DNA of 64,000 bases, taken from NCBI GenBank assembly GCA_902616025.1, contig CACMRE010000002.1:48-64047 (forward strand), given 5' to 3'. Positions within the stretch are counted from its first letter, which is position 1. Each line of letters begins with the position of its first letter. Below the pieces are notes generated by a model that worked only from the letters and a program-made list of their open reading frames with translations, was not told where the DNA came from and did no database searches. Origin of the DNA: an uncultured Pelagibacteraceae bacterium. Lineage in GTDB: Bacteria > Pseudomonadota > Alphaproteobacteria > Pelagibacterales > Pelagibacteraceae. The position numbers and the translations under genes are program-made. Below are positions 46,592 through 48,775 of this stretch, piece after piece.

Positions 46592-46771
46592 TTATTTGTT
46601 AAAGCAATTGTTAACTAATATTGCCATTAATATCCAAATTATAAATGTTTCCCCATGACTAAATGTGTAATCAGCTCCAGCAAAACCTGCTGCAATATTG
46701 ATAGCGTAAATAATTATCGTAGAGACAATTAAGCTTACAAGTAAGTTAATTAATCCTTTCACATATTTCAT
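46592..46771 (-). CDS. 59-aa two-TM membrane protein (not in ORF track)
   Basis: Manual translation MKYVKGLINLLVSLIVSTIIIYAINIAAGFAGADYTFSHGETFIIWILMAILVNNCFNK; its stop abuts the convergent dioxygenase stop. Confidence 0.7.
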   Translation of the reverse strand: MKYVKGLINLLVSLIVSTIIIYAINIAAGFAGADYTFSHGETFIIWILMAILVNNCFNK

Positions 46772-46866
46772 AATGAAACAATATAGATATTAAAACTCAA
46801 TGCAATTTTTAATTTTCTATTTTTAAGTGAAGTTTTTTTAAGATGTGGGAAGACTAATAAATAGTT

Positions 46867-46925
46867 AGGTTGTATTCAAGAAATATATTTAATTAATTTG
46901 TAAATAAATATCTTGAATACAACCT
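46867..46925. repeat. Long inverted repeat (15-bp perfect arms, extendable to ~25 bp)
   Basis: AGGTTGTATTCAAGA (46867-46881) / TCTTGAATACAACCT (46911-46925). Confidence 0.9.
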
Positions 46926-46937
46926 TGCTGAAATTTA

Positions 46938-47113
46938 ACCTCTAATTAAGGAGGTAGTTTTAATGAATCAAATGCCACCTGACACTTAGCTGGGTAGCTT
47001 TATATTTCATAAAAACGAAAACAAAAAACTTAAAGTCTATTCGGACTTAAATGCCATCAAGGCAACTTAAGGGAGCTCTTTTGGCTGGAGAGCAAAAGGG
47101 CAACCCCTTAAGT
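46938..47113 (+). other. Candidate structured RNA with micro-ORF (MNQMPPDT*)
   Basis: TAAGGAGGT SD, ATG at 46963, TAG at 46987-46989; several hairpins downstream. Confidence 0.45.
47065..47113. terminator. GC-rich long hairpin, likely terminator or RNA 3' structure
   Basis: ACTTAAGGG-AGCTCTTTTG-GCTGGAGAGC-AAAAGGGC-AAC-CCCTTAAGT. Confidence 0.65.
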
Positions 47114-47122
47114 AAATTGAAT

Positions 47123-47830
47123 TTACTTTTTTAAAATTCGGCAAATTAATTTATCTTTAAAATTTAGTCTTTTGTTATATTTCCTGCTGATTTCGCTTAT
47201 TCCTTTAAAAATATCTGCACTACTTAAATGCAATAATGTTGAAATGTATCGATTTTTAATCATTTCTACATATTTCTCTCTCGATATTTTTACTTTAAAA
47301 GAAAACATTTTTGAAATACTTCCAGGATATAAAACATTTATATATCTCAGTATTTTTTGATCTCTTTTAAGCGATTTATTCAATTTTTTTTTCATTTTTA
47401 AAAAAGTGGGAATCTCATTTTTAGATGTAGCCAAGGTAAATATTGCTATCCGACCGCCAGAATTAAGACAATTCATACATAGTAAAAATAGTTTTTTTAT
47501 ATCTTTAAGTGGTAAAAAATGAATTGTTTGTTTTAGTAAAATTAAATCAAATTTTTTTTTATTCTTTTTTAAGTAACTTATTGCGTCAGTTTTATTAAAA
47601 ATAATTCTTTTATCTCGATCTTTATGTTGCTCAATATCAATACCTATTGGCTTCTTAATTAATCTAAGCTTAGATGTTAGGTTTCCTAATATTTTACCTC
47701 TGCCACATCCAATATCTAAAATTTCAGAATTCTTATTGAGTTTAGTTTCTTTGATTAAGAATTTGTTAAATGATTTAATATAACTGGTTGATGAAAGCCA
47801 AGTTTTATTGTCCCAATTCTTTAATGACAC
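47123..47830 (-). CDS. Class I SAM-dependent methyltransferase
   Basis: ILDIGCGRG and FDLI...Q.IH motifs. Confidence 0.85.
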   Translation of the reverse strand: MSLKNWDNKTWLSSTSYIKSFNKFLIKETKLNKNSEILDIGCGRGKILGNLTSKLRLIKKPIGIDIEQHKDRDKRIIFNKTDAISYLKKNKKKFDLILLKQTIHFLPLKDIKKLFLLCMNCLNSGGRIAIFTLATSKNEIPTFLKMKKKLNKSLKRDQKILRYINVLYPGSISKMFSFKVKISREKYVEMIKNRYISTLLHLSSADIFKGISEISRKYNKRLNFKDKLICRILKK

Positions 47831-48267
47831 GCAATATTAAATTTTTTTAATCGCCAATAATTATAGGGCCAAGGAGTTAAAAAACCAGCTAAGAGCATAA
47901 TTGGCACAACCCACCATGTTAATATTGCACCACCAGTCAAAAAGTAATCAGTTAAGTTCATTGCAACTTCCATACTTATCATTGATATAAAACTCATTCC
48001 AATTGCAGTTTTAAAAGCTTTTGAAAAATCAAAACTTTGTCTCATTAATATAATTGTTTCCAAAATGATACTTGTAATCAAACCATTAATGATAGCTAAA
48101 ATCATAATTCCTAGAACAGGAAATGGAATTTGTGTTAGCTGAAAAAATAAAATTGTACCCAAATCTCCGATCGCACAACCCAATAAACACCAAGCGGTGT
48201 TTTTAGCACTTCTTTTCCAGGTATGTTTGCATGACCAATGAAAATTAGCCTTCGCAGTTGTGTCCAT
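47821..48267 (-). CDS. DUF4396-like membrane protein
   Basis: NTAWCLLGCAIGD, SMISME and PWPYNYW motifs. Confidence 0.82.
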   Translation of the reverse strand: MDTTAKANFHWSCKHTWKRSAKNTAWCLLGCAIGDLGTILFFQLTQIPFPVLGIMILAIINGLITSIILETIILMRQSFDFSKAFKTAIGMSFISMISMEVAMNLTDYFLTGGAILTWWVVPIMLLAGFLTPWPYNYWRLKKFNIACH

Positions 48268-48271
48268 TAAG

Positions 48272-48775
48272 TTAATTTATATCAACTTTAGCAATCATTC
48301 CAACTTGATAATGACCAGGAACATTGCAAGCTACTTCAATGTTAACTGCGTTATCAAATTTCCAGATGATTTCTCCCTTTTGTTTTGGTTCAAGCAAAAC
48401 ACTATTGCTATGTGAATGGGCCATAGCTTTATCCATTTTTGCCATTTTTTTCATTTTTTCTTTATCAATGGAATCAGCTAATAGAATTTCATTTTCAACC
48501 ATTTTTATCATTTCTGGTTGATGTTTCATGTGCATCATCTTATTTGCAATATTAAATTCATGGACAAGCATACCAGCATTTTCCACTTCAAATTTAATTG
48601 TTTCACCAGCTTTAATTTGAAATGAACTTGGTTCATAATAGTTGTCATACATCACAACTTTAACTACACGTGAGATTTCACTTTCTTTACCTTTAGAGCC
48701 TATTTTCATATTTTTATCAGCATAGGCAAATGTATAAGTAAATATAAAGATAACTAAAAATTTAAATATTTTCAT
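48272..48775 (-). CDS. Periplasmic cupredoxin with His/Met-rich insert (CopI-like)
   Basis: Signal peptide; HEF...ACNVPGHYQVGM type-1 Cu site. Confidence 0.88.
   Translation of the reverse strand: MKIFKFLVIFIFTYTFAYADKNMKIGSKGKESEISRVVKVVMYDNYYEPSSFQIKAGETIKFEVENAGMLVHEFNIANKMMHMKHQPEMIKMVENEILLADSIDKEKMKKMAKMDKAMAHSHSNSVLLEPKQKGEIIWKFDNAVNIEVACNVPGHYQVGMIAKVDIN

What the first reader, a model, noticed from the sequence alone, without database searches (positions are those of the whole stretch)
46938..47113. Stand-alone micro-ORF behind a perfect, hairpin-sequestered SD, with an in-frame amber stop and tandem hairpins
Seen: a full-consensus SD (TAAGGAGGT, 46947-46955) can pair with upstream ACCTC and precedes ATG 46963. 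The ORF is only MNQMPPDT-TAG. The frame stays open after the TAG (LGSFIFHKNENKKLKVYSDLNAIKAT) to a TAA at 47068-47070, at the foot of a long GC-rich hairpin. Two small hairpins (AAGTC-tattcg-GACTT and TGCC-atcaa-GGCA) are punctuated by ACTTAA at 47028, 47045 and 47065. No + strand gene follows, so this is not a classical leader. Known: Pro-Pro motifs near stop codons slow elongation or termination, and SD sequestration is typical of dual-function sRNAs and type I toxin mRNAs. Inference: this may be an undescribed peptide-coding structured RNA (ribosome-stalling sensor, read-through product or dual-function sRNA), kept despite genome streamlining.
Basis: partly seen in the sequence, partly recalled or inferred. 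Interest (0 to 1): 0.72.

Follow-up and report, generated by a model that had tools for sequence, protein, structure and literature searches.

The report
SAR11 sORF-2 micro-gene (PPDT peptide RNA)
This is a real, conserved, free-standing mini-gene of the ocean bacterium Pelagibacter: an 8-codon reading frame ending in Pro-Pro-Asp-Thr, followed by three RNA hairpins. It was published in 2019 as the "sORF-2 motif", and its function is still unknown.

Summary
It is not new. It is the "sORF-2 motif" of Stav et al. 2019 (PMC6429828, Table S1 and supplementary text): a SAR11 short ORF with conserved PPDT next to RNA hairpins, without a fixed gene partner. Their HIMB5 coordinates (794806-795152) overlap my hits.

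- **Distribution:** it occurs in 164/274 genomes of the window's genus, which the matching records name Pelagibacter, in two sister genera (7/8 and 3/3), and in no other group searched.
- **Coding:** every copy keeps a strong SD, an ATG and PP[D/E][T/I]-stop. Within the genus, differences fall only at third codon positions.
- **Stop codon:** it is never a sense codon, but TAG, TAA and TGA all occur, so it is neither a nonsense allele nor RF1-specific.
- **Read-through:** the frame after the stop is not conserved.
- **SD sequestration:** the SD/ACCTC pairing is not conserved.
- **RNA structure:** three downstream hairpins covary, and G·U pairs favour the + strand.
- **Context:** in the genus's PPDT copies the downstream gene is always convergent (130/130). 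The hairpin P3 is not a canonical terminator.

My mechanism is inferred, not shown: an EF-P- or Mg2+-sensitive, MgtL-like stalling micro-ORF that gates a trans-acting structured RNA. The scan's earlier notes hold this element only on this same window.

The parts
46851..46879 (-). Candidate leftward promoter P_L. On the - strand, TTGAAT runs 46879->46874, then N17, then TAGTCT runs 46856->46851. It includes the near-invariant box GGTTGTATTCAA (46868-46879 on +). It points at the 59-aa gene.
   Evidence: TTGAAT-N17-TAnnnT with exactly 17 nt spacing is found in 145/161 unique relatives. The box is present in 135/136 loci at a fixed 102-113 nt from the PP codons. Promoter activity is not shown.
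46913..46941 (+). Candidate promoter P_R of the micro-ORF RNA: -35 TTGAAT 46913-46918 (the right arm of the 15-bp palindrome), a 17-nt spacer, and -10 TAACCT 46936-46941.
   Evidence: TTGAA[TA]-N16-18-TAnnnT is found in 138/161 unique relatives, and the -10 ends 7-11 nt before GGAGG in 125 of them. If it is real, ACCTC (46938-46942) is promoter DNA and is not in the RNA.
46947..46955 (+). Shine-Dalgarno sequence TAAGGAGGT.
   Evidence: (A)AGGAGG is present in all aligned relatives, and is GGAGGAGG in the two sister genera.
46963..46989 (+). Micro-ORF MNQMPPDT plus TAG stop (the sORF of the sORF-2 motif).
   Evidence: Peptides are M-x(1-4)-PP[DE][TI]-stop in every copy. Seven distinct cores within the genus all encode PPDT* and differ only at codon position 3. 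All 83 CM-positive genomes of the genus also carry the intact ORF pattern, and none of the CM-negative genomes listed does.
46990..47031 (+). A-rich spacer of variable length. CTGG directly after the stop is conserved only within the genus.
   Evidence: Alignments A1 and A2. After the stop, CTGG or CTGA occurs in 138/146 unique elements. The sister genera have different sequence and an extra hairpin here.
47032..47049 (+). Hairpin P1 (AAGTC-tattcg-GACTT).
   Evidence: 5 pairs, 98.8% of cells paired, and a G-C<->A-U compensatory change in 11 of 33 sequences. It is kept as a 10-bp hairpin in the sister genera.
47052..47064 (+). Hairpin P2 (TGCC-atcaa-GGCA).
   Evidence: GCC/GGC changes to GCG/CGC in a compensatory way. 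It has a GNRA-type loop in the sister genera.
47066..47112 (+). Hairpin P3: a long GC-rich stem with a conserved 2-3-nt bulge on its 3' side (AA here, GAA in most relatives). It marks the 3' end of the conserved element.
   Evidence: 14 pairs, 7 of them with compensatory changes. G·U pairs sit on the + strand. No U tract follows on either strand: mean 2.7 U in 8 nt. The architecture is kept in the sister genera.

Best explanation
**Identity (about 0.95).** This is the window's copy of the published SAR11 'sORF-2 motif'. It is a single-copy, free-standing gene of about 170 nt on the + strand. It has its own candidate sigma70-type promoter, a very strong SD, a translated 6-9-codon micro-ORF ending in PP[D/E][T/I]-stop, an A-rich spacer, and three covarying hairpins (P1-P3).

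**Mechanism (inferred, about 0.35).** The micro-ORF is not made for its peptide. It works as a translational sensor.
- Pro-Pro-Asp/Glu right after the start is hard to translate. It depends on EF-P and resembles the N-terminal D/E/P motif MEPDPT of MgtL, which aborts translation when ribosomes are destabilised, for example at low Mg2+.
- Whether ribosomes run through, pause or fall off would then set ribosome occupancy on the 5' end of the RNA.
- That occupancy would set the stability or availability of the 3' structured domain.
- The 3' domain would act in trans, more likely by binding a protein than by Hfq-assisted pairing, since SAR11 lacks Hfq.

**Shown:** conservation, coding constraint, RNA structure, stand-alone context.
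**Inferred:** transcription start and end, stalling, and any trans target.
For: **Identity.**
- Table S1 of PMC6429828 lists sORF-2 at HIMB5 794806-795152 with the same neighbour genes: 3-hydroxyisobutyrate dehydrogenase and SMR upstream; unknown, DUF952 and cytochrome c convergent downstream.
- My hits in G013 are at 794895-795168 and 794989-795151, and I find the same neighbour families.
- The paper's text names the conserved PPDT peptide and the adjacent hairpins.

**Translation is under selection.**
- SD, ATG and stop are intact in every copy.
- Within the genus, variation in the core falls only at codon position 3.
- Across genera the peptide changes conservatively, D/E and T/I, while the stop changes among TAG, TAA and TGA.

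**RNA structure on the + strand.**
- 96.7% of cells are paired, 10 pairs carry double changes, and 0/500 shuffles reach this.
- About 34 G·U cells would be A·C mismatches on the - strand.

**Not a cis leader.** The downstream gene is convergent in 130/130 loci, across about 10 unrelated families.

**Sensor idea.**
- The conserved part is the last four residues plus an immediate stop, while the N-terminus varies in length and sequence. That is the pattern expected for action at the peptidyl-transferase centre.
- MgtL's MEPDPT aborts translation within six residues, and the effect is maximal for very short nascent chains (bioRxiv 10.1101/2021.02.02.429294).
- That PPD and PPE are EF-P-dependent stall motifs is from my own knowledge (Peil et al. 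2013), not tested here.
- EF-P is present in all five complete genomes searched. Hfq is found in none of them.
Against: - There are no expression data.
- No alternative RNA pairing links ORF translation to P1-P3. The stop lies about 45-60 nt before P1.
- No trans target or partner protein is identified.
- The exact conservation of one more codon (T/I) and then a stop is not needed for a simple PP[DE] stall.
- The element is missing from closed genomes of the same genus that do have EF-P, so it is accessory.
- The peptide has only three D/E/P residues, fewer than the four-in-six used to define IRD motifs in E. coli.
Confidence: 0.4

Rival explanations
1. The tiny peptide (fMet-x(1-4)-PP[D/E][T/I]) is itself the functional product, for example a ligand or inhibitor of a protein. 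The hairpins only stabilise and end a very short mRNA.
For: - There is amino-acid-level conservation with synonymous variation.
- The C-terminal residue is restricted to beta-branched T or I, and the ORF always ends there. A pure stall at PP[DE] does not need this.
- The SD is strong.
- Stav et al. consider that such sORF peptides may have their own functions.
- There is precedent for a 7-codon gene (mccA of microcin C), from my own knowledge.
Against: - The N-terminus varies in length (1-4 residues after Met) and in chemistry.
- No modifying, export or receptor gene is linked, and neighbours are diverse.
- Three hairpins are kept across three genera, with conserved stem sequence and a conserved bulge. 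That is more than an mRNA stabiliser needs.
- P3 is not a canonical terminator.
Confidence: 0.25
2. It is essentially a non-coding, protein-binding or base-pairing small RNA. The micro-ORF merely loads ribosomes to protect the transcript, and the peptide sequence has no role of its own.
For: Covarying hairpins have conserved sequence. The context is stand-alone. The authors propose an sRNA component.
Against: A ribosome-loading ORF would not conserve PP[DE][TI] and its exact position before the stop across three genera while the stop codon and the third codon positions vary. Hfq is absent.
Confidence: 0.1
3. It is a cis-acting element for its neighbours. It would act either as a shared two-way terminator or barrier for the convergent gene, or as an attenuator that sets antisense read-through into that gene.
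For: A convergent gene ends within about 10-30 nt of P3 in 130/130 loci. P3 is a stable GC hairpin.
Against: - The convergent genes belong to about 10 unrelated families.
- No U tract follows P3 on either strand.
- G·U pairs favour the + strand.
- A terminator does not explain the SD and the conserved ORF.
- The second copies (in two genomes examined, L181 and L186) and one sister-genus copy have a co-directional small ORF downstream instead.
Confidence: 0.07
4. It is a DNA-level feature: a recombination or island-insertion hotspot, or a small mobile cassette, whose conservation reflects DNA function.
For: - Gene content varies on both sides.
- Identity between G000 and G023 drops from 96-100% to about 60% exactly after P3.
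- Distribution within the genus is patchy, and some genomes hold two copies.
Against: - It is single copy in most genomes, with no terminal repeats or integrase seen.
- Codon-periodic conservation and the G·U asymmetry indicate RNA and translation.
- It is not found in viral contigs.
- Being next to a variable region is also typical of RNA genes used as insertion sites, so this is compatible with the main reading.
Confidence: 0.05
5. It is a nonsense allele or a programmed read-through gene that gives the 34-residue product MNQMPPDT-x-LGSF...KAT.
For: In this window the frame stays open for 26 codons after TAG.
Against: No relative has a sense codon at that position (146 unique elements). The extension is 2-33 codons long and is interrupted by indels.
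Confidence: 0.01

Closest known systems
sORF-2 motif (Stav et al. 2019, BMC Microbiol 19:66, PMC6429828; Fig. 6a, Table S1, supplementary text)
   Same: It is the same element. Both are SAR11-only and have a short ORF with conserved PPDT next to hairpins, diverse flanking genes that point toward it, and the same neighbour families. The HIMB5 coordinates overlap my hits.
   Different: Nothing differs in kind. This report adds five points:
- PPEI and PPET variants in two sister genera and in second copies.
- Use of all three stop codons.
- Presence or absence counts by genus.
- A conserved divergent promoter module.
- P3 is not a canonical terminator, and a variable-region boundary lies at P3.
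MgtL leader peptide and intrinsic ribosome destabilisation (IRD) (Chadani et al.; bioRxiv 10.1101/2021.02.02.429294)
   Same: Both have a very short nascent chain rich in Pro and Asp/Glu directly after the start (MEPDPT versus MSPPET or MxxxPPDT). Such chains abort or pause translation, and the cell uses this as a sensor.
   Different: MgtL is a cis leader of mgtA with alternative RNA structures and Rho. Here no downstream gene exists. The motif has adjacent prolines, only three D/E/P residues, and ends at a stop one codon later. Stalling or IRD was not tested.
EF-P-dependent XPPX stalling motifs (Peil et al. 2013; cited in PMC4176338)
   Same: A Pro-Pro pair followed by Asp or Glu is a known strong stall context. 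EF-P is encoded in these genomes.
   Different: Known cases lie inside ordinary proteins such as CadC. A free-standing micro-ORF built around such a motif has not been characterised.
rnTrpL/peTrpL of Sinorhizobium meliloti and other dual-function sRNAs (PMC7968998, PMC7298713)
   Same: It is an alphaproteobacterial small RNA that carries a translated leader-type ORF, and both RNA and peptide act in trans.
   Different: rnTrpL derives from a real attenuator upstream of trpE(G) and has Trp codons and a terminator. sORF-2 has no cis gene, no canonical terminator and no sequence similarity to it.
Classical ribosome-mediated transcription attenuators (trp, his, leu leaders)
   Same: Both have a short ORF with a strong SD followed by hairpins.
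   Different: There is no co-directional regulated gene, no terminator/antiterminator alternative and no U tract.

Membership tests
sORF-2 motif (Stav et al. 2019) | The representative at HIMB5 NC_018643.1/794806-795152 belongs to the same alignment as this window's element. | tested here: met
   The window element matches G013:C1:794895-795168 by BLAST. The CM built from relatives matches G013:C1:794989-795151 at E = 1.3e-25. G013 is a closed genome of about 1.3 Mb. That G013 is HIMB5 is inferred from the coordinates and neighbours.
sORF-2 motif (Stav et al. 2019) | [quoted passage not shown] | tested here: met
   MNQMPPDT* lies at 46963-46989, behind TAAGGAGGT. The same holds in all relatives.
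sORF-2 motif (Stav et al. 2019) | RNA hairpins lie adjacent to the ORF. | tested here: met
   P1-P3 show covariation.
sORF-2 motif (Stav et al. 2019) | It is restricted to SAR11. Flanking genes are diverse and often oriented toward the element: 3-hydroxyisobutyrate dehydrogenase and SMR upstream; unknown, DUF952 and cytochrome c downstream. | tested here: met
   All 119 genome-contig hits are Pelagibacteraceae. The neighbour families match.
Ribosome-mediated transcription attenuator | A co-directional downstream gene or operon is under its control. | tested here: not met
   The downstream gene is convergent in 130/130 loci.
Ribosome-mediated transcription attenuator | Mutually exclusive terminator and antiterminator hairpins, with a U tract after the terminator. 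| tested here: not met
   RNAalifold finds three independent hairpins and no conserved alternative pairing. No U tract follows P3.
Programmed stop-codon read-through or recoding | A conserved open, codon-like frame lies beyond the stop. | tested here: not met
   The extension is 2-33 codons long, with indels that are not multiples of three. All three stop codons are used.
Type I toxin mRNA | A hydrophobic toxin of about 20-60 aa, and an overlapping antisense RNA. | tested here: not met
   The peptide is 6-9 aa and hydrophilic. Antisense RNA is not testable here.
Hfq-dependent base-pairing sRNA | Hfq is present in the organism, and the RNA has a terminator hairpin with a U-rich 3' tail. | tested here: not met
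   PF17209 is absent from 5 complete SAR11 genomes, with positive controls. There is no U tail.
Any Rfam 15 family | A score at or above the family's gathering threshold. | tested here: not met
   Only a tRNA is found in the window. At E <= 10 there are only chance miRNA-like matches to the AT-rich palindrome.
MgtL-type IRD or EF-P-dependent arrest peptide | Translation pauses or aborts at the motif, depending on Mg2+ or EF-P. | not testable with these tools
   Only the sequence resemblance (PP[DE]T versus EPDPT) and the presence of efp could be checked.

The most novel reading that the evidence does not exclude
A free-standing 'ribosome-gated' regulatory RNA. Translation of a 6-9-codon PP[D/E][T/I] micro-ORF stalls or aborts according to EF-P activity, Mg2+/polyamine status or prolyl-tRNA supply. 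This would switch the activity of an attached structured RNA domain that acts in trans in an Hfq-less, regulator-poor organism. It would be a translational-status sensor uncoupled from any cis gene, in the most abundant marine bacteria.
Probability: 0.2. Interest if true: 0.75.

Novelty: already known. Interest (0 to 1): 0.35.

Why it matters
SAR11 cells are among the most numerous organisms in the sea and have very few regulators. A gene this small is therefore notable when it is kept in most genomes of the genus that the matching records name Pelagibacter, duplicated in some, and conserved at both the peptide and the RNA level. The motif has been in the literature since 2019, but only as an orphan in a supplement, and it did not turn up in the Rfam search.

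The added comparative facts narrow the possible mechanisms:
- The invariant unit is PP[D/E][T/I] plus any stop codon.
- The shortest form has 6 codons.
- There is no read-through product.
- There is no canonical terminator.
- Hfq is absent.

These facts give a concrete test: EF-P- or Mg2+-dependent stalling, as with MgtL. For the scan itself, the result is that this finding is a rediscovery.

Tried and rejected
- **Known RNA families:** Rfam at gathering and at E <= 10 gave nothing relevant. ARAGORN found no tmRNA or tRNA here.
- **RF1-specific (amber) sensing:** rejected, because a clade within the genus uses TAA, one sister genus uses TAA and the other uses TGA.
- **Nonsense allele or read-through product:** rejected.
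- **Small hairpin inside the PPDT core predicted by RNAalifold:** rejected, because the few substitutions break it without compensation.
- **SD pairing with the Pro-Pro codons (AGGAGGU/RCCACCU):** it is predicted in the sister genera (pair probability 0.41) but is weak in the window's genus (0.15), and I saw no covariation. Left open.
- **SD pairing with upstream ACCTC:** not conserved.
- **Second upstream micro-ORF across the conserved box:** rejected. There is no consistent start codon and no codon-like variation (read by eye).
- **Phage origin:** the 14 pattern matches in viral contigs are not the element by CM.
- **Functional clue from neighbours:** Pfam on about 27 flanking proteins shows unrelated families.
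- **Transcript evidence:** The Red Sea mdRNA-seq paper maps TSSs on HTCC7211, but its SAR11 table is not held.
- **Earlier description:** Meyer et al. 2009 do not describe this element.
- **Follow-up papers:** searches for sORF-2 or PPDT found none.
- **Divergent copies in CM-negative closed genomes:** only noise.

Full report
**1. What is there**

The window is about 29% G+C. Its assembly, G000, is a 750-kb genome that is 61% complete.

The finding lies in a 351-bp gap between two - strand genes. One is a 59-aa predicted membrane protein at 46592-46771. The other is a 235-aa methyltransferase at 47123-47830.
- TAAGGAGGT at 46947-46955.
- ATG at 46963 and the ORF MNQMPPDT-TAG, ending at 46989.
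- An open frame of 26 further codons to TAA at 47068.
- Hairpins P1 (about 47034-47047), P2 (47052-47064) and P3 (47066-47112).
- Three ACTTAA hexamers.

The region folds far better than shuffled sequence on either strand (z = -7.9 and -6.6). Rfam gives nothing, either at gathering thresholds or at E <= 10.

**2. Conservation**

- BLAST against 61 relatives found the whole element in many genomes of the same genus.
- An exact-pattern scan of 185,579 species genomes returned at least 119 loci, all labelled Pelagibacteraceae or Pelagibacter.
- A covariance model of the SD-to-P3 part (R1) found it in 83 of 107 high-quality genomes of the genus. It gave weak hits in one sister genus and none in the other genera or in the second family.
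- A peptide-level pattern (SD, ATG, PP[DE][TI], stop) matched 164/274 genomes of the genus. It matched 7/8 and 3/3 genomes of two sister genera. It matched none of 10, 35 and 7 genomes of three other genera of the family, nor any of 60 in the second family. A reversed-pattern control gave zero matches everywhere.
- The CM-positive genomes and the pattern-positive genomes coincide.
- Closed genomes of the genus such as G085 and G095 truly lack the element, so it is accessory.
- At least seven genomes hold two copies.

**3. The ORF is under selection for translation**

- All copies keep a strong SD: AAGGAGG in the genus, GGAGGAGG in the sister genera. All keep an ATG and a stop.
- Within the genus the peptide is M-x(2-4)-PPDT, with a variable N-terminus.
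- The seven distinct core sequences recovered without a peptide filter all encode PPDT-stop. They differ only at third codon positions.
- Second copies encode MSLSPPEI. One sister genus encodes MSPPEI and the other MSPPET.
- The stop is TAG in most copies, TAA in one clade of the genus and in one sister genus, and TGA in the other sister genus. No copy has a sense codon there.
- It follows that the TAG is not a nonsense allele and the amber codon has no special role.
- The frame beyond the stop runs 2-33 codons and is broken by indels, so read-through is not supported.

**4. The downstream RNA structure is real and on the + strand**

On 33 diverse sequences, 96.7% of cells in P1-P3 are paired. 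Ten of 22 pairs show compensatory double changes, and no shuffle or slid register comes close. About 34 cells are G·U on the + strand and would be A·C mismatches on the - strand. The sister genera keep the same architecture with different sequence:
- P1 is a 10-bp hairpin.
- P2 has a GNRA-type loop.
- P3 has a 3-nt bulge on its 3' side.

P3 is not a canonical intrinsic terminator. The eight bases after it hold 2.7 U on average on either strand.

**5. Context**

In 130 of 130 loci where a downstream ORF could be called, that gene is convergent and ends just beyond P3. The genes belong to about ten unrelated families: unknown, aminotransferase, cytochrome c', methyltransferase, DUF952, cupredoxin, DoxX, hexapeptide transferase, DUF4396 and one more. 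Upstream genes are on either strand. Only the second copies (examined in two genomes, L181 and L186) and one sister-genus copy have a small co-directional ORF downstream. So the element is a stand-alone unit, not a leader.

Upstream of the SD lies a conserved module. The box GGTTGTATTCAA sits at a fixed 102-113 nt from the PP codons, and there is an often palindromic partner arm. I find this rightward promoter in 138/161 unique relatives and the leftward one in 145/161. If the rightward promoter is real, the RNA starts a few bases before the SD. ACCTC would then be promoter DNA, not part of the RNA. In any case, the ACCTC/SD pairing is not conserved.

**6. It is already described**

Stav et al. 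2019 (PMC6429828) analysed the intergenic regions of SAR11 strain HIMB5.
- It gives 3-hydroxyisobutyrate dehydrogenase and SMR upstream, and unknown, DUF952 and cytochrome c convergent downstream.
[quoted passage not shown] My hits in the closed genome G013 fall at 794895-795168 and 794989-795151 and have the same neighbour families. I found no follow-up work.

**7. How it most likely works**

*Shown:* a translated micro-ORF whose last four residues and immediate stop are constrained; a structured 3' domain; a stand-alone context; no Hfq in five complete SAR11 genomes; EF-P present.

*Inferred:* the constraint sits exactly where a nascent chain touches the peptidyl-transferase centre, and the N-terminus is free to vary. 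Pro-Pro-Asp/Glu is a known EF-P-dependent stall context (my own knowledge). N-terminal D/E/P-rich chains such as MgtL's MEPDPT abort translation in a Mg2+-sensitive way, most strongly when the nascent chain is very short.

I therefore favour, at about 0.35, a translational sensor whose ribosome occupancy governs the fate or activity of the 3' RNA domain acting in trans.

The main rival, at about 0.25, is that the free peptide is the product. The strict T/I-stop ending fits that reading better. The other rivals are:
- A plain sRNA with an incidental ORF (0.1).
- A cis barrier or antisense attenuator for the convergent gene (0.07).
- A DNA-level recombination site (0.05).
- Read-through (0.01).

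Nothing here tests stalling, transcription or targets.

**8. Verdict**

The novelty class is 'already known': a published orphan motif of unknown function. The added value is the wider variant set (PPEI and PPET, all three stops, a 6-codon minimum), the distribution figures, the exclusion of several mechanisms, and a specific testable hypothesis. Interest is moderate to low as a finding, and higher if the sensor model proves true.

Noticed in passing
window 46851-46941: A back-to-back candidate promoter pair sits on a 15-bp palindrome (GGTTGTATTCAAG / CTTGAATACAACC). The leftward TTGAAT-N17-TAnnnT is more conserved than the rightward one (145/161 vs 138/161). It is kept, with a conserved spacer and downstream bases, even where the upstream gene is co-directional and no divergent gene follows. 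What it transcribes there, or which factor binds the box, is unexplained.
   Followed up: partly
window 47113-47170 (and L001 vs L002): Identity between this genome and its closest relative G023 is 96-100% from 45272 through the element. It falls to about 60% directly after hairpin P3 and becomes unalignable after about 47870. In other genomes, genes are inserted between P3 and the methyltransferase. The 3' end of the element marks the edge of a variable region.
   Followed up: partly
window 46592-46771 (- strand): A 59-aa predicted two-helix membrane protein with no Pfam family is divergently placed from the element. Homologues (78-98% identity) sit next to the element in L002, L003, L004, L006 and L013 but not in all contexts.
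   Followed up: partly
L181:1525-1697 (-), L186:1546-1718 (-) (also seen in G092, G093, G139, G143, G229): Some genomes of the genus carry a second copy that encodes MSLSPPEI-TAG instead of PPDT. In the two second-copy loci examined (L181, L186) a co-directional 71-aa ORF of no known family follows about 110 nt downstream, then DUF465 and CBS genes.
   Followed up: partly
L192-L197, L183, L184 (sister genera): Hairpin P1 is the invariant 24-nt palindrome GAATTCATTT-TTCT-AAATGAATTC in two different genera, although the flanking sequence differs. In these genera the SD (GGAGGUG) is predicted to pair with the Ser-Pro-Pro codons (CACCACCU), with the AUG in the loop.
   Followed up: partly
G013, G064, G085, G061, G252 (whole genomes): No Hfq gene (PF17209) was found in five complete SAR11 genomes, while the same search finds it in E. 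coli, Caulobacter and other controls.
   Followed up: no
window 47123-48775 (- strand): Downstream of the element lie a methyltransferase, a DUF4396 membrane protein and a cupredoxin-like protein. In relatives the same slot holds cytochrome c', DoxX or DUF952 genes. It is a small redox- or copper-flavoured variable cluster.
   Followed up: no
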